Shown one piece after another: positions 1 to 10,492 of a DNA stretch of 12,961 nucleotides. Within the stretch, counting starts at the first letter, position 1. Every line of letters begins with the position of its first letter. The position numbers and the translations under genes are program-made. The notes beneath the pieces were generated by a model, which saw only the letters and a list, made by a program, of their open reading frames with translations, was not told the origin of the DNA and searched no databases. This DNA is from a virus. Taxonomy: Duplodnaviria > Heunggongvirae > Uroviricota > Caudoviricetes. Location: IMG/VR virus record IMGVR_UViG_2778261527_000007, one strand, 5' to 3'.

Positions 1-92
1 GTGTTACCTCAGTGTAAAAGTAAAAATGAATATAACCGGAAGAGATAATCCCCAGCCGATACCCAAAGGGCGCGACCGGGGGGCATTTTGCA

Positions 93-1112
93 TTACTTCA
101 GCTTGACGTTCAGCGTGTAGTTCGGGCGCAGGTTCAGAGGGATGAAGCTCGCCTCCTGGTGAATGGTCACCATGCCGTAACGGTCAGTCATTACTTTCTG
201 GTAGAACGGGCTGATCTCGCCTTTCGCGGCGATGTCCTGATTACGGGAAGCCGGGCCGTGTACCAGTTTGAACGGGTTACGGTCAGCGCCGTTAAACTTA
301 GGAACGAACAGGCCGGAACCTTCTTCGCTTTCGTAGCGGTCATCGTCCGCCAGAATGAAAGTAATGTTGCCAATGCTGAAGGAGTCATAACCCGCAGTGT
401 TAACCGGGATCAGAGCGCCTTTTGCAGCTTCCGCCACTTTGTTGGTAATAAGGCTGGTTACTTCCGGGTGGCTCGCCAGTACGTCATACAGATCCGGGGA
501 GCAGAAGCAGAAGAAGCGGTCCAGATAGGAGCGGCTCGCGCCGTACTCTTTAACCAACATGCGGCGAATCTTCGCAAGCTGTGCATACACGTTAGCGCCT
601 GCTGAACCGTCCAGGTTGAAACTCAGCGGATCGGCACCCATCGCCGCGCGAAAGTCGATATCACCGTCGTCAGTCTTAGCCGCTTTCGCTTCCTGTTTGA
701 ACAGGGCGCGGGCCAGCGTACTTTCAACCGTTTCCAGGTGATGGTTACGCATACGGATAGCTTTAGACGCGATCACTTCAGAAATAGCCGCAACCTGATC
801 CGGGTTAGCCGGGCTGATCAGACCTTGCCAATCAGCGGTTTTTACGTCCGCTTCGGTGGCGTAGTGTGGGAGCTCCTGGTCACGCAACAGAGGCTTATCC
901 ATTTTGATGGAGTTAACTTCGGTGCCGTAGCGGGCTACCTGTTCCAGTTCAGAGACTTGAGTCTCTACGATGTCCAGAACTTGAGCGTTTGGAGTGGTGG
1001 AGTTAACACCGGAGAAGATACCCAGATCAGAGATCAGGTAATTACCCGCTGGCACTTGTTTAAGTGCCGCTACGGTGTCCAGCTTTTCAAACTGTTTAAA
1101 ATCAATAGCCAT
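93..1112 (-). CDS. Phage major capsid protein (339 aa; lambda gpE-type family suggested)
   Basis: 339-aa ORF with RBS AAGGAAAT just upstream of the ATG at 1112-1110. It lies 13 nt downstream of a ~120-aa head gene, the classic decoration-then-major-capsid arrangement; size and composition fit gpE-type capsid proteins. Family assignment is by recognition, not search. Confidence 0.7.
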   Translation of the reverse strand: MAIDFKQFEKLDTVAALKQVPAGNYLISDLGIFSGVNSTTPNAQVLDIVETQVSELEQVARYGTEVNSIKMDKPLLRDQELPHYATEADVKTADWQGLISPANPDQVAAISEVIASKAIRMRNHHLETVESTLARALFKQEAKAAKTDDGDIDFRAAMGADPLSFNLDGSAGANVYAQLAKIRRMLVKEYGASRSYLDRFFCFCSPDLYDVLASHPEVTSLITNKVAEAAKGALIPVNTAGYDSFSIGNITFILADDDRYESEEGSGLFVPKFNGADRNPFKLVHGPASRNQDIAAKGEISPFYQKVMTDRYGMVTIHQEASFIPLNLRPNYTLNVKLK

Positions 1113-1124
1113 TGTGTGATTTCC

Positions 1125-1496
1125 TTATGCTTTGAAGTAATCGGCGTTGATAGCCAGGCGAATATCACCGGAGGCTGTCAGCGCTTCCAGTGCGGCTTTT
1201 TTGCTCGCGGCGTCTTTAGCACGTAGGGCAAAATCGGTAATCACAACATGGCGATCCACGATAACCAGAGTCTTAGGCTTGCCATCGGCGGACATATTGG
1301 AAAGGTTGATGATCGGCTTGCCAGCGTCAGCGGCGGCGGAGTCGAACAGTGCAAAAGTTTTGCTGTCCAGGAGGTCACCGCAGAAGACGTCAGCCGGGAG
1401 GCTTGGGGCGGTGACTTCGGTGCGGTCAAACAGGCTGGAGGCGTAATTCACGATTACGTCACCTTGCGTTACCGGGTAGCGCTCGGAAGTTTTCAT
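1125..1496 (-). CDS. Small phage head protein, decoration-like (123 aa)
   Basis: Internal ATG at 1496-1494 preceded by AAGGAAAA, the same RBS context as the capsid gene; the longer track ORF (to 1640) has a Cys/Pro/Arg-rich N-terminal extension that is unlikely to be real. Ala/Ser-rich 123-aa protein immediately upstream of the capsid gene. Confidence 0.55.
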   Translation of the reverse strand: MKTSERYPVTQGDVIVNYASSLFDRTEVTAPSLPADVFCGDLLDSKTFALFDSAAADAGKPIINLSNMSADGKPKTLVIVDRHVVITDFALRAKDAASKKAALEALTASGDIRLAINADYFKA

Positions 1497-1689
1497 AAAG
1501 GTTTTCCTTATGGAGGGTTTTAGACGTGGAGAGAGTCCACAGGGTGATCCGGTGCAACGCCGGATATAAGGACCGCCACAGAGGACAATCCGAATTGTTG
1601 GAAGATGGGAGGCCGTGGGGTGAATAGAAGAGGGCGGCATCCGCGCCGCCCTTTCTAATCTGGCTCTCTCTCACCCTCTAGGGTGGGGG

Positions 1690-1709
1690 GAGGTGTAAAC
1701 CTCTTTTTT
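1690..1709 (+). terminator. Possible intrinsic terminator hairpin (GAGGU-GUAA-ACCUC followed by UUUUUU)
   Basis: 5-bp stem with GNRA-type tetraloop followed by six T. Nothing obviously coding upstream on +, so the role is unclear. Confidence 0.3.
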
Positions 1710-1767
1710 GTGGTCACTCACCCGCCAGCGTCACGGGAGCAACCGCCAGCCGATGGGTAAATAACCA

Positions 1768-1796
1768 CAAAAAAGAACCCGGTAGGAGAGACCGGG
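1768..1796 (-). terminator. Intrinsic terminator upstream of the head gene pair
   Basis: On the - strand: CCCGGU-CUCUCCU-ACCGGG perfect 6-bp GC-rich stem followed by UUCUUUUUUG. Sits ~270 bp upstream of the decoration-like gene start. Confidence 0.45.
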
Positions 1797-2697
1797 AGAA
1801 GACAATGTAACTTACTGTCTGATCACTTGTTTTCCTGTGTAGCCTCAGAGCCTTACATGATTTGCTTTCATGGTTCAGCAAAGAAGCCACAGAGGAAAAC
1901 GGGACGCAACCAACGCCCCGGAAACCATCGACACAAATCAACAGTTTATCGTTGAGACCAGGTAACCAGCCCGGCCCAACTGTGGACCCCTAAAGGGTCA
2001 ATACAATCGAAGGAGATTCCGCTTGTATTCTGAAGAGCCGCAGTTAGCGACGCTTTAAAATAGGGCCTGTGCCGCAAGCCCTATGATTAGAGGCATTTTG
2101 AATCGTAGGAATGTCATCAACTGGCGGAACTTGAGGAGAGGACCGCACACAAAGCATTCTGGCAAGTGGAGTTGAAAGAACGCTTTGGGTGAGGGCCGGG
2201 GACTTGCTGAAGGTTCCCGGCTCTCTTACAGACCCTGACAGGTTGGCTAAAACCCATGTTTCTGTACAGGTGTGAGGCGGCAAGCTGCAAAACGGCGATT
2301 TCGACATACTCACCATATCCCACACCATGTATATTAGTTTAACACGAATGATTATCATTTGCAATAAAAATTAATTGCATTGTGTTGTTTGATATGATAT
2401 GTGAGATTGAGGGCAGATCTGGCGGCAGGTACAGAGGAGCCACACAGAAGAGGGGCGGGAGCATCCCACAGGGGCCACAGGAAAGCCTCCACGGGGTTTT
2501 AATGGGGTAAGATGATAAATGACCTTGTCACAGTGGCGGACGCGCTGGAGAGCTTTACAGGAGGTTGTAGAGGGTGGAGGGATTATTGATTGATAATTGA
2601 ACAGGTGAGAGTGTAATTAATTTTTATTGACAGTCTATAAAGATCATGTTATTTGCGTGTGCATACGCACTCACGCCCGCGCCTCCGCGAACACATC

Positions 2698-2802
2698 TTT
2701 TAAATAAAAGATTTTTATTATAATCGTTCAATCGGACTTTGACAAGTCCTCTTTCACTCTTAAATAAAAGATCTTTTATATAATATCTATCGTTCAATAA
2801 TT
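2698..2802. repeat. AT-rich imperfect direct repeat (two ~40-bp copies, ~60 bp apart)
   Basis: TTAAATAAAAGAT(C)TTTTAT..TAAT..CGTTCAAT occurs at 2698-2735 and 2758-2802. A TTGACA hexamer lies between the copies (2739-2744). Confidence 0.5.
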
Positions 2803-2948
2803 AATCGCTTAGGCTCTTAATTATTTCACTCATATATTATTACCATTAAAACCTTCTCGGCCTGATCGGCCTTACCAGGTTTTAGGCCGTAGGCCTGTTC
2901 CCACAATGTGGAGTCTCGCCTGTGTGGCTCACTCCAGACAGGGACCCC

Positions 2949-3006
2949 GGAAATATTTTCCGGGCAGGGTGGAAGATTTTTCCGGCCTGTTAGGAAATAT
3001 TTTCCG
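2949..3006. repeat. Three phased 14-bp repeats GGAA(A/G)AT(A/T)TTTTCCG at 22-bp spacing
   Basis: Copies at 2949-2962, 2971-2984 and 2993-3006, each a near-palindrome (GGAAA..TTTCC). The 22-bp phasing equals two helical turns, typical of protein-binding arrays (operator, iteron or packaging-site type). Confidence 0.6.
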
Positions 3007-3414
3007 ACAATAAGACTATATATAAAACTACCCATAAGACTAACACCCAGGGGCCAGGTCAAGATCTTTAAGGGAGTGTTGGGGAAATCGTAGATTGATT
3101 GGTAAGAGACTGATCTCTGTTAAGCGTCTTACAGACGCGCCTCTTTGGCAGCGCTCGTACCAGCGAGCAAGACCCCTTTGGAACACCGCACGATGTAAGG
3201 TGACCTCTGGGCGGCGGGGTGGGGTCCCCGGCCCGGCATAACGTACAGAACCACAACCCACAGGAACCCACCTAAACGCGCCGCTGTGGCGCTCTCTCCT
3301 ACGTAGACAAGGAAACACCTTATAAACGCCCTCCGGCGCTCTGAGAGCCTTACAGGGGCTTTCTGTGCCTATAGCACAATAAACAAATGATCGCAAGATA
3401 AATCAATAAAGTTA

Positions 3415-3443
3415 TTGCGAATCATTGTCAAATAGTGTAAAAT
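3415..3443 (+). promoter_or_regulatory. Candidate sigma70 promoter for the + strand operon
   Basis: TTGCGA (3415-3420), 17-bp spacer, TAAAAT (3438-3443), ~75 bp upstream of the first ORF. A second candidate is TTGTGA (3449-3454) / TATATA (3472-3477). Confidence 0.3.
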
Positions 3444-3517
3444 AGATATTGTGACGGGGTAGTTAATCAGGTATATAAATCCCCATCATACTATAACCAA
3501 CCCAGCAGGAGAATGCA

Positions 3518-3943
3518 ATGAGTATTTACCTTGATGTTGAAAAAATGGTTGAACGTGTCGATCAGCGTGATCTGACCCGTAAGACCCTGACAGAAACCCG
3601 CAGCCGGATGAAAGCCGCCGGACGTATGAGAGAAGTAGAAGCGATTACGCAGGCCCTTGAATTGACCAAATCCAGTGCCTCCGGCGTTATGCGCCAGTCT
3701 CAGCGCCTCACAGGTAAAATTACAGAGATGGACGCAGAGAAGGCATTAGAGCTTAAAGCAACCGTTGCGCTGTTCGCTTCCAAGTCTACGGATCTGCAAG
3801 CCTCCATTGTGCTGGCGTTCCAATCCCTCTTTGAGGCTAAAGGCGTGCCGATGGAATATGACGAAGTGATGGCCTACATCATGTTGAATGCGGCGGATCA
3901 GTTTGAGCGTATCACCGGAGAGCTACCCGTAATCGTACATTAA
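3518..3943 (+). CDS. Hypothetical protein (141 aa)
   Basis: First gene of the operon; ATG preceded by AGGAG with a 6-nt spacer. No family recognised. Confidence 0.65.
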   Translation: MSIYLDVEKMVERVDQRDLTRKTLTETRSRMKAAGRMREVEAITQALELTKSSASGVMRQSQRLTGKITEMDAEKALELKATVALFASKSTDLQASIVLAFQSLFEAKGVPMEYDEVMAYIMLNAADQFERITGELPVIVH

Positions 3944-3972
3944 TTTTTAACTTACTTTTTGGAGAGGAAACA

Positions 3973-4158
3973 ATGAGCAAATATCAGCCTTATGTTGATT
4001 TGAGTGATTCCCCTGTGTTGTCAGCGTATGCACAGCAGACGATCAACCAGTTAGACCCCATCCTGTATAGCGACATTTACGAAATGTTGACGCAGGTTAG
4101 CCCCTCCCAAATGGTGACGATTGGCAACCCGGCTATTACCGCCCCGGCGTCATGGTGA
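3973..4158 (+). CDS. Hypothetical small protein (61 aa)
   Basis: ATG preceded by GGAGAGGA; tightly packed after the previous gene. Confidence 0.45.
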   Translation: MSKYQPYVDLSDSPVLSAYAQQTINQLDPILYSDIYEMLTQVSPSQMVTIGNPAITAPASW

Positions 4159-4220
4159 GGTGATTGGTTCGGCCTCAACCTCACCGCTGAAGACATCGCA
4201 GAATTAAAGGAGATTAGCCT

Positions 4221-4409
4221 GTGAGTAAAAATAAAGAGTTGGGGATCAGCTTCGATCCCTATGTGATGGAGCAGCTTTTCGCGTTGGCCTCCACCCGTGA
4301 ACATGGCAGCGTTCACACCATTGTTAAGAAAGCCGTTAGCCAGTACCTGAAAACCGTTAATTCCATCTCTGTTAAGGATTCCCAAAATGACAGCAGCCGC
4401 AGTAAGTAA
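4221..4409 (+). CDS. Ribbon-helix-helix (CopG/Arc-like) DNA-binding protein (62 aa, GTG start)
   Basis: GTG start preceded by AAGGAG. N-terminal pattern ISFDPYVMEQLFALASTREHGSVHTIVKKAVSQYLK fits the beta-strand/helix/loop/helix layout of RHH regulators. Confidence 0.5.
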   Translation: MSKNKELGISFDPYVMEQLFALASTREHGSVHTIVKKAVSQYLKTVNSISVKDSQNDSSRSK

Positions 4410-5049
4410 GCCATTTACCGCAATCCCGCATGACCTTGCGGACATTGAGCTGATCGGAGGCAAGGCGTTTACCATGAACATGGTTTACACCTACAGCCTG
4501 ATCAAAGGTTACCAGGACAATGGGCAAACGGCCTATTTCTCACAAGATCTTTTAGCCCGTCGCCTGGGGGCCACAGATCGAACCGTCCGCAACCTGTTGC
4601 GCGATATGTTGGAGATGGGTCTGATTAACAAGACCGGGCAGATCGGCGGCAAGACCTGCCATTACACAGTTAACCCGATCACCCCGGAAATGGTGGGAAC
4701 CCCTGAAGCCGCCAAACCTGAAGTAACCAAACCAACCGCAGCACCCCAACCGAAGGAGACCGTAGAGAATGCAGGAAGTAACCAGCCTGGAATTGTTAAG
4801 TGTGGATCTGAAAGTGTACATAGAAGCCGCCCGGCGTCGCCTGGAGCTTCTCCTGTGGACCACAGCGGGGGCGCTATTCGTCCCGCTCCTGTCCCTGTGC
4901 CAGTAGAGCAGGGGGCCGCAAACGATGATTTACGCAACCCTGTTATTAATTTTGTGGCTGGCTCTAATGTGATGATGGTCAACGGCTTGCCTGTTGAATA
5001 TCTGGAGCCAGAAGAAAGCGCCGTTGATCAGTTTGGTGATGCTTTCTAA
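4387..5049 (+). CDS. Winged-HTH (HTH_36-like) DNA-binding protein, possible replication initiator or organiser (220 aa)
   Basis: ATG preceded by AAGGA; overlaps the RHH gene by 23 nt. Motif AYFSQDLLARRLGATDRTVRNLLRDMLEMGLI resembles the HTH of phage/plasmid replication proteins, followed by a Pro/Ala-rich linker and an acidic C-terminal domain. Alternative start at ATG 4474. Confidence 0.6.
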   Translation: MTAAAVSKPFTAIPHDLADIELIGGKAFTMNMVYTYSLIKGYQDNGQTAYFSQDLLARRLGATDRTVRNLLRDMLEMGLINKTGQIGGKTCHYTVNPITPEMVGTPEAAKPEVTKPTAAPQPKETVENAGSNQPGIVKCGSESVHRSRPASPGASPVDHSGGAIRPAPVPVPVEQGAANDDLRNPVINFVAGSNVMMVNGLPVEYLEPEESAVDQFGDAF

Positions 5050-5125
5050 AAATCTGCAATTGATTTCCCAATAATAACACTATACACCAAACCCCCGCGC
5101 TTTACAACCCTCTGGAGACTCTCGC

Positions 5126-5692
5126 ATGAATGAATTTATTACAACCAAATTCAAAGCCTTATCCTCTGAGGAAGAGGCCGCAGTTAACGCACTGGCTGAG
5201 AAATTGGCAGCAAACAAGCCCCGCCGGATTATGGATGAGAGCCACTTAACCCCGGATCAAATCCTGAAGATCAAGCGGGCCTGTATTCAGGGCCACAGCG
5301 CTAAAGCCATCCAAGCGGCGTTTAATGTGTCGCTGGCTTACGTCCTGAAAGTAAAGCGCAGCCACAACCCCCAGAAGTACCAAAAGACCCCGCTAACTTT
5401 GGCTGAAAAAGGCGTTATGGCTAAACAGATGGAAGCCGACGGCCTGAGCCTCTCCAAAATGGCGGAACTCCTGGGGATTAACAGTAAGATGGTCTCCCTA
5501 CTTCTTACCCAACCTTCACCCCGTTACCTGGTGGAGCAAATGCTCCCGTATGACCAAGTTTTGCAGAATCTACGCAGCGCCCGCTATGTAGAAAACCCTG
5601 TATACAAAGAGGGGACGAATAAGCGCCGTGTGCGTCTAATCGTTTCTGAAGCACGTCAGCAGACCCGCCAGGCAATCATTAAATCCCGGTAA
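5126..5692 (+). CDS. DNA-binding protein with two predicted HTH motifs (188 aa)
   Basis: ATG preceded by GGAGA. Two HTH-like segments (..GHSAKAIQAAFNVSLAYVLKVKR.. and ..GLSLSKMAELLGINSKMVSLLL..) and a basic C-terminus. Confidence 0.6.
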   Translation: MNEFITTKFKALSSEEEAAVNALAEKLAANKPRRIMDESHLTPDQILKIKRACIQGHSAKAIQAAFNVSLAYVLKVKRSHNPQKYQKTPLTLAEKGVMAKQMEADGLSLSKMAELLGINSKMVSLLLTQPSPRYLVEQMLPYDQVLQNLRSARYVENPVYKEGTNKRRVRLIVSEARQQTRQAIIKSR

Positions 5693-5863
5693 CTATGCCC
5701 AACCCAACGGAATGGGGTCTAAAGGATTATTTAGGCTCCAAACTGGTTAAGCGTCAGACAAGACTCTCTAACTTTCTCGCCTCACTCCTCTACATCCCCT
5801 TTAAACCCGCCTCCCTCTTCCTGTGGGGTGTGGTAATCACTTTACTTATAAGGACCCTCTCAC

Positions 5864-6238
5864 ATGGAAGCATTTAAGAACCTCCTCAATCAGTTGGAAA
5901 TTCAGAAGGCAGAACAGCGCCAGCGGGAAGCCGAAGAGGCAACCAAACAGAACGAACTCCGCAAGGCACAGGCCGATCTGTCACTGGATGAGGCTATCGC
6001 TCTGTACGCCACACAGTTGGAAGCCTCCGCCAATGCCGCAGACAGCGCCCAGAAGGGCCGCGCCATTAAGAGCCGGGGAATTGCTCTGTGTCACAAGGAT
6101 CAGGGATTCAGCGCCAACGGTCGCCCGGTCTCTCTCCTGACCAAATCCGCAGACCTGCCAGCAGGTCACCGCCGGGTAATCATTAACAAGGCAGCAGGGC
6201 GCACCCTGAAGGCTATCAAACTGGAAGGGGATGAATAA
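5864..6238 (+). CDS. Hypothetical protein (124 aa), translationally coupled to the tape-measure-domain gene
   Basis: ATG preceded by AAGGA. Its stop TAA (6236-6238) overlaps the next ATG (6238-6240) as TAATG. N-terminus is coiled-coil-like. Confidence 0.6.
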   Translation: MEAFKNLLNQLEIQKAEQRQREAEEATKQNELRKAQADLSLDEAIALYATQLEASANAADSAQKGRAIKSRGIALCHKDQGFSANGRPVSLLTKSADLPAGHRRVIINKAAGRTLKAIKLEGDE

Positions 6239-8373
6239 TGAGCGGTAACGTGATCATTACCAAAACGATTAACCGGACCATGTTCACCACGGACGGGGCC
6301 AGCTATAAAAAGACAGTTGACCGTATCAAACAGGTAGGGAAAGAGTGGGACAAAGTAGCGTCCAAGATGAAACCGCTACGCCTCAAGTTTGAGGAAAACG
6401 CCTACACCAAGATCCGCCGGAAACAGCAGGACGCCGCCGCAAAAGCAGCACTGGCAGAAGCCAAAGCCAAAGCGGCAGCAGACGCCAAAGCAGCCAAAGC
6501 ACAGATCGCAGCGGAGCGTAAGATCCAGACAATCCGCGCTAAAGCTATCCGCTTCAGCACTTCAGCGGCTAACGCCAACGTGACCCCGGCCCAACGTGCT
6601 GGACACCTCCAGGAGTTTGGACAGCTTACGCGCCAGTATCACGCCGGGTCTATGGCATTGCAGGAATATAACGCCCGTGTGTCAAAACTTCAGCAAACCA
6701 TGCGCCAACAAGGCCGGGTAGGCATGAGGGGAGCCACAATTCCAGTAACCGCCAAAGTTAACAAACTGGACACCTCCATGATCGAGGGTGCAGGGGGGGC
6801 GATCACCATTGCCGCAACTGTGGCGCTGAGCGGCAAGATCATGACCACCGGGCAGGATTTTGAATCCGCGCTTTCTGGTCTGACAGCGATCACCGGTTCC
6901 ACAGATAAGGCCGCTAAAGAGTTTGATTATCTCCGTGATCAATCCAACCGTTTGGGGCTGGACCTCCTGAAGACTTCAAAGGATTACACTCAATTTGCCG
7001 CCGCTGTTGGTGACAAACTCCCTAAAGACCAGATGAGATCCATCTTTGAGGGTGCCAGTGAATGGGGCCTTGTTACTGGTGCAGACGCCGACGCACAAAG
7101 CCGCGCTTTGAAAGCACTTAACCAAATGATGAGTAAGGGAACGGTGATGAGTGAAGAACTCAAAGGCCAGCTTTCCGAAGCTCTCCCGGGCGCTGTGGGT
7201 CTGTTCGTTAAGGCTCTCAACCAGATGAAAGGGACAACCAACCTTACAGAAAAGGATCTGTTTGACCTGATGCAACAAGGGAAGCTGTTCTCTAAGGACA
7301 TCCTCCCGGAAGTGGCGAAACAGATGAAAGCCGCAGCTCGTAACGGCGGCGCTCTGGATAAGGCTATGAAGTCCAACCGGGCAAGTTGGCAGCGCCTGCA
7401 AACCAGTATGCAGAACGCTATGAATATCTTCTTTACTTCTGGCTTTGGTAACTCACTAACCAGCGCTTTCGACGCTATCAGCGCCGCTGTTAACGGCTCT
7501 GGTGGGGCCTTTGAGATGTTCGGGCATATCGCCGGGAAAATCGTTGAGGGTGCCACAGATGCGTTTACAGAGTTGCACGACACTGTGATCCTGACCTTCC
7601 GCATTATTGAGTATTACGCCGCTAAGATGGGGATCACTGGTGAGCAGCTTAAATCCTGGGGAGAAATGGCAGCATACGCCGCCGGGGTGGCTCTGTTCGC
7701 TGGCTCTATCTGGAAGTTGGGCGGGGCCTTTAAATGGTTGTTGACCATGCTCAACCCGCTAACCAAATTGCTGGGGGTCATGAAAGGGATCGCCGCTATT
7801 GGTGGCATTGAATCCGCTACAACTGGCGGATCTGGTGGGGAAGGTAAAGACAAGCCAAACAAACCGGGCCGGGGTCCGAAAGTTGGCAAGGTAGGCGGCG
7901 CGGCGGCTCTCTCTGGCGGTCCTGTTGGCTGGGGCATTGCGATCGGTTCGGTAGGTGGGGATTATGCCTGGGATAAAGTCATGGACGCTAACGACGCCAT
8001 GTATGGACAGGACACCACCGCCGGAGGCAATCTGAAGAAAGATAGCCCGCTGGGTAAACTGTGGGATTTCATCCACAGCCCAGACCTTCCGACTAATCCA
8101 GACTTTGCCAAACCAACAGATAAAACAGGGTGGGTAAGCTCTTACTCCAATCCGGGTTATGTTCCTCCTGCGCCGACGATTACAGCGCCACAGCTTAAAG
8201 TTGATATGGCAGGTAATCCACTGATGACGCCGCCAGCGTGGCTAAACCAGCCGCTTAACGTGAACGTCAATGTGAAAGTGCAGGATGGGCAGGTTAGGGA
8301 TCTGGTCCGCTCTGAAGTTGAGACCAACAACCAGCAGGCTTTCAACATGCTGATGCAGGGCGGGCCGAACTAA
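6238..8373 (+). CDS. Phage tail tape-measure-domain protein (711 aa)
   Basis: N-terminal Ala/Lys-rich coiled coil, then a region (..ADAQSRALKALNQMMSKGTVMSEELKGQLSEALPGAVGLFVKALNQM..) matching the conserved tape-measure domain as I recall it. C-terminal half has hydrophobic Gly-rich segments (..VGGAAALSGGPVGWGIAIGSVGG..) typical of tape-measure proteins. RBS AGGGGA. Confidence 0.75.
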   Translation: MSGNVIITKTINRTMFTTDGASYKKTVDRIKQVGKEWDKVASKMKPLRLKFEENAYTKIRRKQQDAAAKAALAEAKAKAAADAKAAKAQIAAERKIQTIRAKAIRFSTSAANANVTPAQRAGHLQEFGQLTRQYHAGSMALQEYNARVSKLQQTMRQQGRVGMRGATIPVTAKVNKLDTSMIEGAGGAITIAATVALSGKIMTTGQDFESALSGLTAITGSTDKAAKEFDYLRDQSNRLGLDLLKTSKDYTQFAAAVGDKLPKDQMRSIFEGASEWGLVTGADADAQSRALKALNQMMSKGTVMSEELKGQLSEALPGAVGLFVKALNQMKGTTNLTEKDLFDLMQQGKLFSKDILPEVAKQMKAAARNGGALDKAMKSNRASWQRLQTSMQNAMNIFFTSGFGNSLTSAFDAISAAVNGSGGAFEMFGHIAGKIVEGATDAFTELHDTVILTFRIIEYYAAKMGITGEQLKSWGEMAAYAAGVALFAGSIWKLGGAFKWLLTMLNPLTKLLGVMKGIAAIGGIESATTGGSGGEGKDKPNKPGRGPKVGKVGGAAALSGGPVGWGIAIGSVGGDYAWDKVMDANDAMYGQDTTAGGNLKKDSPLGKLWDFIHSPDLPTNPDFAKPTDKTGWVSSYSNPGYVPPAPTITAPQLKVDMAGNPLMTPPAWLNQPLNVNVNVKVQDGQVRDLVRSEVETNNQQAFNMLMQGGPN

Positions 8374-8389
8374 CCGCCCATACAAAAAA

Positions 8390-8419
8390 GGCTCCCCTAG
8401 TGGGAGCCTTTTCTCTTTT
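8390..8419. terminator. Bidirectional intrinsic terminator between the convergent tape-measure and recombinase genes
   Basis: GGCTCCC-CTAGT-GGGAGCC perfect 7-bp stem, flanked by an A-run (8384-8389) and a T-rich tail (8409-8419). Confidence 0.6.
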
Positions 8420-8442
8420 ATAACTCCTAATATCCAGGCTTT

Positions 8443-9009
8443 TCATAACAGATCTTCTATTGAATATTTATTACTGAAATCATCTACTTTGCGTTGTGTG
8501 GCCCCAATGTAATGGAGCGTACTGGATAACGATTTGTGCCCCAATGCCTTACTGATTACGGCTATATCCTCCCCATTGTCATAACCAATCGTTGGTTTAC
8601 TCTTCCTCATGCTGTGGGTCGAAAGATTCAGCCCCAGCTTTTCCCCGGCGTAGCTAATTTCCTCATGCAATTTGGAGCGGCTCACAGGTTTTCCCTTGCT
8701 CCTGTGGCTGTCCAACTGTAAGAGGTATACATGATCAGGGTTCGCCTCTCTCCGGGCCGCTATGATGCGTTTAGCGGTATCGGTGAGCCTCACCCGGACA
8801 GATTCACCCGTTTTCTGTTGGGACAGGACAAGGTGATCGCCTTTGATGTCGTCATAACGGATAGAGCGCAGATCCGACACCCTCAGCATTAATTCATAAC
8901 CCAGCAACCAGGCGTCACGGTACAGCGTCAGCCCCTTGCCCTGTTTGAGTAGCTCAACCGCTACCGCTTTCACTTCCTGAACTGATTTACAGCCCTCTAC
9001 GAAATTCAT
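8443..9009 (-). CDS. Tyrosine recombinase, integrase catalytic domain only (188 aa; FimB/FimE-sized)
   Basis: Strong RBS GGAGGG 5 nt before the ATG. All catalytic signature residues of lambda-Int-type recombinases are present in order: R (LRVSDL), K (QQKTG), H-x-x-R (HSMRKS), H and Y (LGHKSLSSTLHY). There is no room for N-terminal arm- or core-binding domains. Confidence 0.75.
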   Translation of the reverse strand: MNFVEGCKSVQEVKAVAVELLKQGKGLTLYRDAWLLGYELMLRVSDLRSIRYDDIKGDHLVLSQQKTGESVRVRLTDTAKRIIAARREANPDHVYLLQLDSHRSKGKPVSRSKLHEEISYAGEKLGLNLSTHSMRKSKPTIGYDNGEDIAVISKALGHKSLSSTLHYIGATQRKVDDFSNKYSIEDLL

Positions 9010-9033
9010 TCTGTACCCTCCAGATCCTAACTG

Positions 9034-9050
9034 TGATCAATTCTTGATCA
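9034..9050. promoter_or_regulatory. 17-bp palindrome TGATCAA-TTC-TTGATCA with two GATC sites, in the recombinase promoter region
   Basis: Perfect 7-bp inverted arms with a 3-bp spacer, 25-41 bp upstream of the recombinase start codon. Confidence 0.35.
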
Positions 9051-9403
9051 AAAACATGCACTTGTAAACGACAAAAATGATTAATTTTATGATGTGTCTT
9101 TTTAGTGAATTAAATCGGGTTTAATCGCGTTTAATGGTAAAGTAATGACCCGGCAGGGGAGGTAATGACCTGTTTAAGTGGGTAAAAGATGGTTACTTAA
9201 TGTACTATCACCACAAGGCGGGTAAGGTGATTTGACTCCCCCAGCGCCTTAAAGTTACTGTATTTGTGGGCAATTAATTATTGTTTCGTTATGGTGTTGC
9301 CTGGCAAATTTTCAATTTACCCTCAAGAAAAAATCCCCAGCTTTTTTATCCTTATATGAGAATCAATATCATTTGTAAACGATAGTCGTTCTCGTTACCA
9401 ATC

Positions 9404-9582
9404 GGGGCGAAAGCCTTCGCCCCTCAAAGGGCCTCTGTAGGCCCGCTCTCTGTATGCGCCTGTGGCGCTACCACTCTTAACCCTGTGGGTTTGTATTACT
9501 TGTCACAAGATAATGCGCCACAGGCGCACAGGGGAGGCGTCCGCCTCCAGGGTGGCCCGGCTGGGCCACTGGTCCACAGGGT
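9404..9582. repeat. Cluster of GC-rich hairpins and nested inverted repeats
   Basis: Successive perfect stems: GGGGCGAA/TTCGCCCC (9404-9423), GGGCCT/AGGCCC (9429-9444), GCGCC-TGT-GGCGC (9456-9468) and its reverse complement GCGCC-ACA-GGCGC (9515-9527), GGAGGC/GCCTCC (9533-9548), GTGGCCC/GGGCCAC (9552-9569). A 9-bp inverted pair ACCCTGTGG (9480-9488) / CCACAGGGT (9574-9582) encloses part of it. Does not match the REP consensus I remember. Confidence 0.5.
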
Positions 9583-9972
9583 AAAACAACAGAATGGTAT
9601 TGTGTTGTTATTAAGTAATTGAGAATAAAGGGATATCTGAGTGAGCGCACTGTAAGAGCGGAAGGTTGGACAATGTTTGACCAGAATGCAGGCCATCCGG
9701 TAGGGAGCGCCCCCAGATATTTGGCGAAAATACTCTCATCACCCGGGGCCTCAGATCGAGGGGCCTAGCAACAATATCCAAACTCCCGGATATTTTCCCA
9801 CCCAACTGGAAGGAATCCGCCCCTATTTTCTGTTCGTGTATAGGTTAGGCTGAGGGAGGCTTGCCAATGTACACCCCCTGGATTTGGTGATCTGTTAAGT
9901 TATTGATTTTGATCGATTTTAGATCAATCATCCGTTGCCGGGATTACCCCCCACCCAGACGGATGGCACACA

Positions 9973-10155
9973 ATGAATAACGATAAAGCAAACCACCCTA
10001 AACACTTCCAATACTTGGGCCGCATGGTCACTGTTTACCCTACATACATCATTATTGACGGTATCAAGATCAGCCGTGCCCGTCTTTCCTTTGCATTCCA
10101 ATTGGAATTGGCAAAAGCACTTCGACTGCATGAAGAAAGCGTATGCAGAAAATAA
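9973..10155 (+). CDS. Hypothetical small protein (60 aa), uncertain
   Basis: ORF followed 37 nt later by a strong intrinsic terminator; RBS is weak (GGATGG). Confidence 0.3.
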   Translation: MNNDKANHPKHFQYLGRMVTVYPTYIIIDGIKISRARLSFAFQLELAKALRLHEESVCRK

Positions 10156-10191
10156 ATTTCATTTAAATCTTCACGACTGAATAATTTACTT

Positions 10192-10217
10192 AAGCCGCCT
10201 TATGGGCGGTTTTTTTT
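10192..10217 (+). terminator. Intrinsic terminator
   Basis: GC-rich stem (GCCGCC / GGCGG) with 5-nt loop, followed by eight T (10210-10217). Confidence 0.6.
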
Positions 10218-10366
10218 GTGCCTGCCATTTATCTGTGGGTCACAACGTGAGACACAAACTGGGACACAGAGGATTTTTTAGGGTTGAGTCTTTGGCTTCC
10301 CGCTGGCATGATCCAGAACAGGGATTAACGGGACGTTAATCGCAAGCTTTTGATTTTGTTTTATTT

Positions 10367-10492
10367 GACTCGGGGTGCCCTTCTTAAATGAAGGCTGAGA
10401 AATACCCGTATTACCTGATCTGGATAATGCCAGCGTAGGGAAGTCACGGACCACCAGGTCATTGCTTCTTCACGTTATGGCAGGAGCAAACT
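10367..10492 (+). promoter_or_regulatory. TPP (THI-box) riboswitch in the thiM leader
   Basis: Aptamer (about 10367-10445) GACUCGGGGUGCCCUUC..GGCUGAGAAAUACCCGUAUUACCUGAUCUGGAUAAUGCCAGCGUAGGGAAGUC is near-identical to the E. coli thiM TPP aptamer as recalled, including the CUGAGA and ACCUGAUCUGGAUAAUGCCAGCGUAGGGAA elements. Expression platform runs to the thiM SD and ATG. Confidence 0.9.

What the first reader, a model, noticed from the sequence alone, without database searches (positions are those of the whole stretch)
4221..5049. Overlapping RHH regulator and HTH_36-like protein pair
A 62-aa RHH protein gene overlaps by 23 nt the start of a 220-aa protein with an HTH_36-like motif, linker and acidic tail, as in phage/plasmid replication initiators. 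Together with the upstream repeat arrays this suggests the island can replicate autonomously, as satellites (PICI, P4-like) do. A toxin-antitoxin or defence function is not excluded.
Basis: partly seen in the sequence, partly recalled or inferred. Interest (0 to 1): 0.4.

Follow-up and report, generated by a model that had tools for sequence, protein, structure and literature searches.

The report
Satellite replication initiator with matching iterons
The two overlapping genes are real, and the larger one most likely encodes the DNA-replication starter protein of a small phage-parasite island, because its DNA-reading part changes in step with a set of repeats 1.4 kb upstream in 26 related islands.

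Summary
Both ORFs exist exactly as described: RHH-like 62 aa at 4221-4409, and a 220-aa protein at 4387-5049, with a 23-nt overlap. The pair and its 17-32-nt overlap are conserved across a mosaic family of ~13-kb Enterobacterales islands that carry capsid and tape-measure genes.

The 220-aa protein has three parts:
- a winged-helix N-terminal domain (residues 10-105);
- a disordered Pro/Ala/Glu-rich linker;
- an acidic tip ending in Phe.

Its sequence neighbours are phage O-like and DnaD-like replication initiators. The best structural match is 4RO3, the N-terminal domain of RepA, the replication initiator of the Vibrio cholerae satellite PLE.

The decisive result is comparative. Three dyad-symmetric 15-bp repeats with 22-bp phasing sit at 2948-3006. 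They lie next to three conserved AT-rich ATAARACTA repeats. The repeat unit changes with the protein's recognition-helix class in 26 loci and 7 classes, while the intervening genes do not.

Iteron binding is therefore well supported. Origin function, partner recruitment through an SSB-tail-like tip, and the RHH's regulatory role are inferred. No toxin-antitoxin, defence or terminase signal was found. This is a new variant of a known kind.

The parts
4221..4409 (+). 62-aa ribbon-helix-helix-like protein gene (GTG start; SD AAGGAG at 4207-4212)
   Evidence: ORF. Conserved in two main sequence types in family loci. Weak RHH evidence. PGAP gives an RHH label to the ortholog.
4387..4409 (+). 23-nt overlap between the RHH stop and the initiator start. 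Probable translational coupling.
   Evidence: An overlap of 17-32 nt is conserved in the 11 intact loci examined.
4387..5049 (+). 220-aa iteron-binding, replication-initiator-like protein gene
4387..4701 (+). N-terminal extended winged-helix domain (residues 1-105). The recognition helix and wing (about residues 61-95) are the specificity determinant.
4702..4929 (+). Disordered Pro/Ala/Glu-rich linker (residues 106-181)
   Evidence: pLDDT below 50. Variable in length and sequence among homologs.
4930..5046 (+). Acidic C-terminal module ending in DQFGDAF-COOH. This is an SSB-C-terminal-tip-like motif.
   Evidence: Two unrelated C-terminal types both end in an acidic stretch plus a terminal aromatic residue. 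118 of 119 homologs end in F or W. SSB-Ct is DDDIPF (PMC5872125 and PMC3632105).
2948..3006 (.). Iteron array of three dyad-symmetric units with 22-nt phasing: CGGAAATATTTTCCG at 2948-2962, a degenerate unit at 2970-2984, and a third at 2992-3006. Proposed binding sites of the 220-aa protein.
   Evidence: the only sites in the window, 0.48 expected by chance; the unit co-varies with the recognition-helix class in 26 loci and 7 classes.
3010..3042 (+). Three ATAARACTA repeats 12 nt apart in an AT-rich stretch (67% AT) that abuts the last iteron. Conserved in all specificity classes. Candidate DNA-unwinding element or site for a conserved factor.
   Evidence: 3 matches against 0.12 expected, found nowhere else in the window. 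Conserved tails are shown.
2897..2947 (.). Highly conserved left flank of the iterons. It contains the palindrome CCACAATGTGG and a position-conserved weak DnaA-box-like element.
   Evidence: 91% column identity. TTTTCCACA or TTTCCCACA lies 40-95 nt left of the iterons in most loci, but the window copy is degenerate.
3415..3452 (+). Promoter-like sites upstream of the operon p141-p61-RHH-initiator
   Evidence: 9 of 12 matches. The sequence TAGTGTAAAATAGATA is conserved in all loci.
3518..4158 (+). Two upstream genes of the same operon (141 aa and 61 aa), function unknown
   Evidence: Syntenic in all family loci.

Best explanation
The pair is the replication module of an integrated phage-satellite-like island.

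**Proposed mechanism.**
1. The 220-aa protein binds as a dimer, through its winged-helix N-terminal domain, to the three 22-bp-phased dyad-symmetric iterons at 2948-3006. These lie 1.4 kb upstream of its gene.
2. The adjacent conserved AT-rich ATAARACTA repeats (3010-3042) would be the region that opens.
3. The protein has no helicase, primase or loader domain. Its long disordered linker and acidic tip ending in Phe would tether host or helper-phage replication proteins to the origin. The tip resembles the C-terminal tip of SSB.
4. The small RHH protein is translationally coupled to the initiator. It would act as a co-expressed repressor or dosage controller of the module, as CopG does for RepB.

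**Status of each step.**
- Shown: the anatomy, the conservation, and the protein-iteron co-variation.
- Strongly inferred: iteron binding.
- Inferred: origin firing, partner recruitment, and the RHH's role.
For: **1. Co-variation of protein and repeats.**
- In 26 loci the repeat unit lies between the conserved flanks GTCTCGCCTGTGTGGCTCAC and CAATAAGACTA. It changes with the recognition-helix class of the protein.
- Class DR[ST]VRNLLRDM goes with CGGAAATATTTTCCG.
- Class RSTVKRLVNEM goes with GGGGTCACATTGGACCCC.
- Class RQTVVKLLxDM goes with GGTGTAAGGAAATCAGACAGC.
- Class TTPTVVKLIRDM goes with ACTTAAATTTCTTTAGT.
- Three further classes follow the same rule.
- Window and L008 are 92-98% identical per 60-nt bin from 3061 to 3480. 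Their RHH genes are 98% identical.
- The same pair is only 10% identical at 2941-3000 and 45-72% identical in the N-terminal-domain coding part.
- RHH, p61 and the capsid gene do not co-vary with the repeats.

**2. Architecture of the repeat region.**
- Units are dyad-symmetric with spacings of 21-23 nt or multiples.
- A conserved AT-rich repeat block follows directly.
- The array is about 200 nt from the nearest predicted promoter on one side and about 410 nt on the other.

**3. Family relationships.**
- PHROG replication-initiation, O-like and DnaD-like families match 26-32 of 33 members.
- Remote relatives are HTH_36, DnaD_N and phrog_270.
- Foldseek's best PDB hits are the RepA_N initiators 4PQL, 4PT7 and 5KBJ.
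- Named viral hits are replication initiators.

**4. The C-terminal tip.** It is conserved across two unrelated C-terminal module types, and 118 of 119 homologs end in F or W.
Against: - No experiment shows replication, and the island has no other replication gene.
- Pfam RepA_N does not match, and HTH_36 passes by only 0.3 bits.
- The iterons lie in the control region between two divergent operons, so a transcriptional role is possible.
- No clear DnaA box or IHF site is present in the window copy.
- The window has only two good iterons plus one degenerate unit, against 4-5 in relatives.
- No DNA target was found for the RHH.
- The resemblance to the SSB tip is a motif-level resemblance only.
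Confidence: 0.62

Rival explanations
1. Packaging-specificity factor. The 220-aa protein would be a small-terminase-like adaptor, as lambda Nu1 is at cosB. It would bind the repeat array as a pac/cos recognition site. Its variable C-terminal tail would recruit the helper phage's large terminase, so that the island DNA is packaged.
For: - Satellites commonly redirect packaging.
- The layout of N-terminal winged helix, linker and short C-terminal partner-binding tail fits small terminases (established knowledge of Nu1).
- The island carries capsid and tail-length genes but no recognisable terminase.
- The two C-terminal tail types could match different helpers.
Against: - No member matches any terminase small-subunit family.
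- All annotated sequence and structure neighbours are replication proteins.
- Regular 22-bp phasing next to an AT-rich repeat block is typical of origins.
Confidence: 0.12
2. Transcription factor only. The protein would be a MarR-like activator or repressor. It would bind an operator array in the 2-kb divergent control region and switch the capsid operon, the early operon, or both. The RHH would be a second repressor. Neither would have a role in replication.
For: - Some database records name homologs 'MarR family transcriptional regulator'.
- PDB sequence hits are generic regulators.
- The array sits between a strong leftward promoter (2745-2717) and the rightward promoter (3415-3452).
- Initiators often also autoregulate.
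Against: - The array is about 200 nt from the leftward promoter and about 410 nt from the rightward one, and overlaps neither.
- The protein has no effector-binding or dimerisation domain of the MarR type. It has a 115-residue disordered tail instead.
- Its family neighbours are replication initiators.
Confidence: 0.15
3. Toxin-antitoxin or anti-phage defence pair. The RHH would be the antitoxin and the downstream protein the toxin or effector.
For: The gene layout (a small RHH gene overlapping a larger downstream gene) resembles type II TA operons. Islands of this family do carry defence-like cargo next to the integrase.
Against: - The downstream protein is a DNA-binding winged helix plus a disordered tail, with no toxin fold.
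- PADLOC and NCBIfam give only generic-HTH noise.
- The pair lies in the conserved core operon, not in the variable cargo region.
- The protein's specificity co-varies with DNA repeats.
Confidence: 0.03

Closest known systems
RepA of the Vibrio cholerae satellite PLE and its iterons in non-coding region NCR3 (Barth et al., NAR 2020, PMC7145576)
   Same: - Both are satellite-encoded initiators without helicase or primase.
- The iterons are semi-palindromic and lie in a non-coding region away from the gene.
- In both cases the element sits in an integrated island.
- A virulent myovirus helper is possible here too, since the island's tape-measure protein is about 38% identical to those of phiTE/CR3-type phages.
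   Different: - There is no detectable sequence similarity, and 4RO3 was not found by sequence search.
- The C-terminal part here is a disordered linker plus a short acidic tip, rather than a folded C-terminal domain.
- This gene is coupled to an RHH gene.
- The host clade and island gene content differ, since this island has its own capsid, decoration and tape-measure genes.
RepA_N plasmid initiators of Firmicutes (pSK41 and pTZ2162 RepA; PDB 4PQL, 4PT7, 4PTA, 5KBJ) and the DnaD N-terminal domain
   Same: - Extended winged-helix N-terminal domain. These are the best Foldseek PDB hits, with 108 aligned columns.
- The iterons are dyad-containing direct repeats.
   Different: - Pfam RepA_N (PF06970) does not match.
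- The origin is not inside the gene.
- The C-terminal part is different.
Phage lambda O protein and ori-lambda
   Same: - PHROG 'replication initiation O-like' families match.
- The iterons are dyad-symmetric, are bound by an N-terminal domain, and are followed by an AT-rich block.
- The initiator and its sites swap together as a specificity module in a mosaic family.
   Different: - Lambda's iterons lie inside the O gene, whereas here they are 1.4 kb upstream.
- There is no O-type C-terminal domain and no P-like loader gene.
copG-repB cassette of plasmid pMV158 (an RHH repressor co-transcribed with the initiator). This comparison rests on general knowledge.
   Same: A small RHH protein is encoded immediately upstream of, and co-expressed with, the replication initiator. 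hhalign aligns the RHH in register with CopG (E=7e-4).
   Different: RepB is a rolling-circle HUH nuclease, not a winged-helix iteron binder. The genes here overlap. No operator was identified for the RHH.
C-terminal tip of bacterial SSB (DDDIPF)
   Same: An acidic stretch ending in Pro/Ala-Phe at the very C-terminus, carried on a long disordered Pro-rich linker. Compare DWDLDPAF, DYDFGDPF and DQFGDAF with DFDDDIPF (PMC5872125 and PMC3632105).
   Different: It is attached to a double-strand DNA-binding winged helix rather than an OB fold. Binding to any SSB partner is untested.

Membership tests
RepA_N-type replication initiators (Pfam PF06970; PLE RepA, pSK41 RepA) | Sequence match to the RepA_N profile | tested here: not met
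   No PF06970 hit at E<=1. Only 1 of 60 remote relatives matches RepA_N.
RepA_N-type replication initiators (Pfam PF06970; PLE RepA, pSK41 RepA) | N-terminal domain with the DnaD-NTD/RepA_N extended winged-helix fold | tested here: met
RepA_N-type replication initiators (Pfam PF06970; PLE RepA, pSK41 RepA) | Cognate array of semi-palindromic iterons | tested here: met
   There are three units at 2948-3006 with 22-nt phasing. The unit co-varies with the recognition helix in 26 loci and 7 classes. Physical binding was not tested.
RepA_N-type replication initiators (Pfam PF06970; PLE RepA, pSK41 RepA) | Drives replication from the iteron-containing origin | not testable with these tools
   This needs a replication assay.
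HTH_36 / phage O-like initiators | Profile match above the curated threshold | tested here: met
   HTH_36 scores 25.3 bits against a cut-off of 25.0, E=1.4e-5, which is marginal. O-like PHROG families 391 and 678 match 31 and 26 of 33 members.
HTH_36 / phage O-like initiators | Origin iterons inside the initiator gene, and a C-terminal domain that binds a P-like loader | tested here: not met
   No repeat array lies within or next to the gene in 12 loci. The C-terminal part is disordered. The island has no loader gene.
Ribbon-helix-helix (Arc/MetJ/CopG) proteins | Strand-helix-turn-helix pattern with a conserved Gly turn | tested here: met
   The alignment shows invariant F11, L19, L22, G29, H32, I34, A38 and L43. 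AF2 predicts helices at 13-24 and 31-47 after an extended N-terminus.
Ribbon-helix-helix (Arc/MetJ/CopG) proteins | Statistically significant profile match to an RHH family | tested here: inconclusive
   There is no Pfam, PHROG or NCBIfam hit. PDB profile hits are PutA RHH at E=0.13 and ParG at E=0.77. hhalign gives CopG E=7e-4 (probability 26%) and Arc E=2e-3.
Type II toxin-antitoxin pair or defence system | Downstream partner with a toxin or effector fold, or a match to a defence model | tested here: not met
   The protein is a winged helix plus a disordered tail. PADLOC and NCBIfam give only weak generic-HTH matches.
Small terminase (Nu1/TerS) | Match to a terminase small-subunit family | tested here: not met
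   None appears in Pfam or PHROGs for the protein or its 33 homologs.

The most novel reading that the evidence does not exclude
The pair is the replication module of an undescribed family of Enterobacterales phage satellites that encode their own capsid, decoration and tape-measure proteins.

- The initiator is a minimal 'tethered-tip' protein: a DnaD/RepA_N-like iteron binder with no enzymatic or loader domain.
- It would recruit host or helper-phage replication proteins through an SSB-C-terminal-tip mimic on a disordered tether. The helper could be a virulent phiTE/rV5-type myovirus.
- Recombinational swapping of the N-terminal domain together with its iterons would create at least seven replication-specificity groups among otherwise near-identical islands.
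Probability: 0.35. Interest if true: 0.75.

Novelty: new variant of a known kind. Interest (0 to 1): 0.6.

Why it matters
If correct, E. coli and its relatives carry a satellite family that replicates in the same way as the Vibrio PLE. A small initiator with no enzymatic domain would bind iterons and borrow someone else's replisome.

The protein-iteron co-variation gives at least seven natural specificity pairs. These are ready-made material for studying winged-helix DNA recognition, satellite incompatibility and orthogonal replicons.

The SSB-tip-like tail suggests a testable and unusual way to recruit replication proteins to an origin.

The result also assigns a function to part of a puzzling 2-kb non-coding region that is conserved in these islands.

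Tried and rejected
- **Iterons inside or beside the gene (lambda O / RepA_N style).** Only scattered chance 9-mers were found in 12 loci.
- **An operator for the RHH.**
  - The promoter-proximal palindromes exist and vary with compensating changes (CAATAAAGTTATTG versus CAACAAATTTGTTG), but not with RHH type.
  - The L002 versus L012 comparison had too many differences to isolate a site.
- **The AT-rich repeats at 2697-2784 as iterons.**
  - They are a local duplication of a promoter-like segment.
  - They lie in a hypervariable region that is shared by window and L008 although those two differ in initiator class.
- **DnaA boxes and IHF sites.** There is only a weak, position-conserved DnaA-box-like element, and the window copy is degenerate. 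No IHF consensus was found.
- **Rfam.** The only match reaching its gathering score is the thiM TPP riboswitch. The one other hit is a sub-threshold Phe_leader match at 8382-8466 (26.4 bits against 55).
- **Close homologs in sequenced phages or plasmids.** One weak phage hit and no plasmid hit.
- **Circularity of the ~13-kb stand-alone contigs as evidence of an episome.** There are no terminal overlaps, and the contig ends fall in the att repeat, as expected from assembly breaks.
- **p188 as a small terminase.** It is only a tandem-HTH 'DNA binding protein' (phrog_664).
- **Structure prediction of the RHH with a diverse alignment.** The close-homolog alignment gave a moderate model (pLDDT 64), so no fold search was run on it.
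- **Literature searches for this island family.** Nothing was found.

Full report
**Observation**

The window is E. coli chromosome, 99.9% identical to strain 90-1. One search lists a 62-aa ORF at 4221-4409 and a 220-aa ORF at 4387-5049 on the + strand, overlapping by 23 nt. RefSeq annotates the same CDSs. Each has a Shine-Dalgarno sequence 8 nt upstream of its start codon.

The pair sits in an island of about 13 kb between rcnR and thiM. A 72-nt direct repeat marks the ends: window 10367-10438 matches L002 14188-14258. That repeat lies inside the thiM TPP riboswitch.

An intact copy in strain SCU-316 has this gene order:
- integrase and an ATP-dependent nuclease;
- a lambda-gpE-type major capsid protein and a decoration-like protein;
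- about 2 kb of non-coding DNA;
- genes for proteins of 141 aa and 61 aa (83 aa in SCU-316), the RHH, the 220-aa protein, and proteins of 188 aa and 124 aa;
- a tape-measure protein and a short tyrosine recombinase.

**The family**

Homologs of the 220-aa protein occur only in Enterobacterales (136 hits). An exhaustive profile search of 1.84 billion representative proteins found just 186 at E<=1e-3.

Loci from E. coli, Salmonella, Citrobacter, Enterobacter, Klebsiella, Pantoea, Pectobacterium and metagenomes share the core synteny. They differ in integrase type, integration site and cargo. They are strongly mosaic.

In the 11 intact loci examined, a 56-66-aa ORF ends 17-32 nt inside the larger gene. 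This argues for translational coupling.

**The RHH**

No curated family matches. The weaker evidence is consistent:
- The alignment shows the strand, helix, Gly-turn, helix pattern.
- AF2 predicts two helices after an extended N-terminus.
- PDB profile hits are led by the PutA RHH domains and ParG.
- hhalign aligns it in register with CopG (E=7e-4) and with Arc.
- PGAP calls one ortholog an RHH protein.

I accept 'RHH-like' as probable. Its DNA target is unknown. Its two main sequence types do not correlate with the iterons or with the promoter-proximal palindromes.

**The 220-aa protein**

AF2 gives a confident winged helix for residues 10-105 and disorder for residues 107-191. The alignment of 33 homologs shows four features:
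- a conserved N-terminal domain whose recognition helix and wing fall into discrete classes;
- a variable Pro/Ala/Glu-rich linker;
- two unrelated C-terminal modules;
- an acidic tip ending in an aromatic residue in both module types.

118 of 119 homologs end in F or W. Typical tips are RDWDLDPAF, xVDQFGDAF and SDYDFGDPW. This resembles the SSB C-terminal tip DDDIPF, which binds DnaG, chi, PriA and other proteins (PMC5872125 and PMC3632105). That comparison is a lead, not a test.

Sequence and structure neighbours:
- Pfam HTH_36 is matched marginally.
- PHROG replication-initiation, O-like and DnaD-like families match 26-32 of 33 members, with a best E-value of 4e-9.
- Of 60 remote relatives, 43 are HTH_36, 16 are DnaD_N and 43 are phrog_270 'replication initiation protein'.
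- Foldseek against the PDB puts the RepA_N plasmid initiators first, though weakly (E=5e-3).
- 4RO3 is the N-terminal domain of RepA of the Vibrio cholerae satellite PLE. That protein is a RepA_N-type initiator that binds semi-palindromic iterons in a non-coding region, lacks helicase and primase activity, and needs phage ICP1 (PMC7145576).
- Named viral structural neighbours are replication initiators.

**The decisive comparison**

Window and Pectobacterium locus L008 are 92-98% identical per 60-nt bin from 3061 to 3480, and 98% identical in the RHH gene. The exceptions are 2941-3000 (10% identity) and the N-terminal-domain coding part 4381-4680 (45-72% identity).

The 2941-3000 patch holds CGGAAATATTTTCCG at 2948 and 2992, and a degenerate copy at 2970. 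The phasing is exactly 22 nt. No other site exists in the window, against 0.48 expected by chance.

Across 26 loci the unit between two conserved flanks tracks the recognition-helix class without exception. There are seven classes. For example:
- RSTVKRLVNEM goes with GGGGTCACATTGGACCCC;
- RQTVVKLLxDM goes with GGTGTAAGGAAATCAGACAGC;
- TTPTVVKLIRDM goes with ACTTAAATTTCTTTAGT.

Classes that share a wing also share half-sites (TGTCA/TGACA). The same class recurs in diverged backgrounds, and different classes occur in near-identical backgrounds. RHH, p61 and capsid types do not track the repeats.

Units are dyad-symmetric, and most spacings are 21-23 nt. The last unit always abuts a conserved AT-rich block. 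In the window this block is three ATAARACTA repeats 12 nt apart at 3010-3042, against 0.12 expected.

The array overlaps neither predicted promoter. These are on the minus strand at 2745-2717 and on the plus strand at 3415-3452.

**Interpretation**

Iteron binding by the N-terminal domain is strongly supported by co-variation, at about 0.9. The array most likely serves as a replication origin, by analogy with PLE RepA, RepA_N plasmids and ori-lambda.

The supporting points are the phased dyad iterons, the adjacent AT-rich repeats, and an initiator-type fold and family. I put the complete replication-module model in Best explanation at 0.62, with origin function as its main uncertainty.

The island has no helicase, primase or loader. 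Replication would therefore depend on host or helper proteins, plausibly recruited by the tethered acidic tip. This step is inferred.

By position and coupling, the RHH is most simply a co-expressed regulator, as CopG is for RepB. This is also inferred.

**Rivals**

- A small-terminase-like packaging adaptor: 0.12. No terminase signal was found.
- A pure transcription factor: 0.15. The location in a divergent control region fits this reading, but the distance to the promoters and the family relationships argue against it.
- A toxin-antitoxin or defence pair: 0.03.

**Comparison and novelty**

The module works like PLE RepA with its iterons, and its N-terminal domain has the RepA_N/DnaD fold. 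It fails the RepA_N sequence test, and both the lambda-O-type and the RepA_N-plasmid-type location of the iterons inside the gene. It has a different C-terminal part and is coupled to an RHH gene.

No homolog exists in sequenced phages or plasmids. I found no paper describing this island family. I rate it a new variant of a known kind, with interest 0.6.

**Caveats**

- All functional steps beyond co-variation are inferred.
- The window copy has fewer iterons than its relatives.
- In the closest complete genome the island's integrase is interrupted by IS911, so this particular copy may be immobile.

Noticed in passing
window 1-10438 (island); att repeat at 10367-10438; L002 14188-14258: The island belongs to an apparently undescribed satellite-like family of about 13 kb. 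It has a lambda-gpE-type capsid gene, a decoration-like gene and a tape-measure gene, but no portal, protease or terminase. It is integrated in the 5' part of the thiM TPP riboswitch, and a 72-nt repeat rebuilds the riboswitch. Other members use different integrases and sites, including tRNA-Gly and serine recombinases.
   Followed up: partly
window 1497-2376 (minus strand): This is an ~880-nt non-coding block between the leftward promoter and the decoration/capsid genes. It stays 53-91% identical to the window across the 12 other loci compared. On the minus strand it carries a series of hairpins and terminator-like stems with compensatory changes, for example at 1778-1796, 1631-1652 and around 1540. 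It may be a structured leader controlled by antitermination. Rfam finds nothing.
   Followed up: partly
window 2377-2776: A hypervariable AT-rich segment (GC 0.33) is replaced wholesale between islands. It contains a strong minus-strand sigma-70 promoter (TTGTCA-17-TATAAT, 2745-2717) and a 60-nt tandem duplication of a promoter-like unit (2697-2784). An 18-nt inverted repeat (2362-2379 and 2612-2629) has its left arm at the end of block A and its right arm inside the segment.
   Followed up: partly
window 6238-8373 and 5864-6238: The tape-measure protein is about 38% identical to those of the large virulent myoviruses phiTE, CB7 and CR3. The upstream 124-aa protein belongs to Pfam Phage_phiTE_211. 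This hints that the helper could be a virulent phage of that group. The capsid protein has only 24% matches, to Pseudomonas phage VCM.
   Followed up: partly
L007 4894-5199; L012 9532-9837; L014 9532-9822; L015 9557-9835: Some islands carry an extra 92-101-aa gene just upstream of the RHH. It is a stand-alone paralog of the initiator's N-terminal winged helix, without the linker or tip, and has its own distinct recognition helix. It is absent from the window.
   Followed up: partly
L021 about 4230-4250; L038 iteron region: Two islands of other specificity classes keep a single class-A unit (CGGAAATATTTTCCG) at the left edge of their array. These look like relics of module swapping.
   Followed up: no
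window 3395-3412 and equivalents: A palindrome overlaps the -35 region of the operon promoter. It varies between islands with compensating changes that keep the symmetry (CAATAAAGTTATTG versus CAACAAATTTGTTG). L003, L007 and L011 add a second palindrome (TGATGACnAGTCATCA) at the start site. The variants correlate with neither RHH type nor initiator class.
   Followed up: partly
window 3077-3166: A second swapped patch lies in the conserved non-coding block and has two main versions among the loci. It is not correlated with initiator class and remains unexplained.
   Followed up: no
window 8443-9009 (minus strand): A short (188-aa) tyrosine-recombinase-like gene next to the right end is 98-99% identical in islands that are otherwise mosaic. 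The full-length integrase lies at the other end of the island.
   Followed up: no
L001 13105-15715 (outside the window, left of it): In the closest complete genome (E. coli 90-1) the island's integrase is split by IS911, and yehB nearby is interrupted by ISKpn26.
   Followed up: no
window 5126-5692: The 188-aa protein downstream of the initiator is a tandem-HTH protein (phrog_664 'DNA binding protein', with a weak Cbp1-like match). Its sequence type tracks the initiator's C-terminal tail type, but the two regions are adjacent, so linkage cannot be excluded. The gene is split or missing in some islands.
   Followed up: partly
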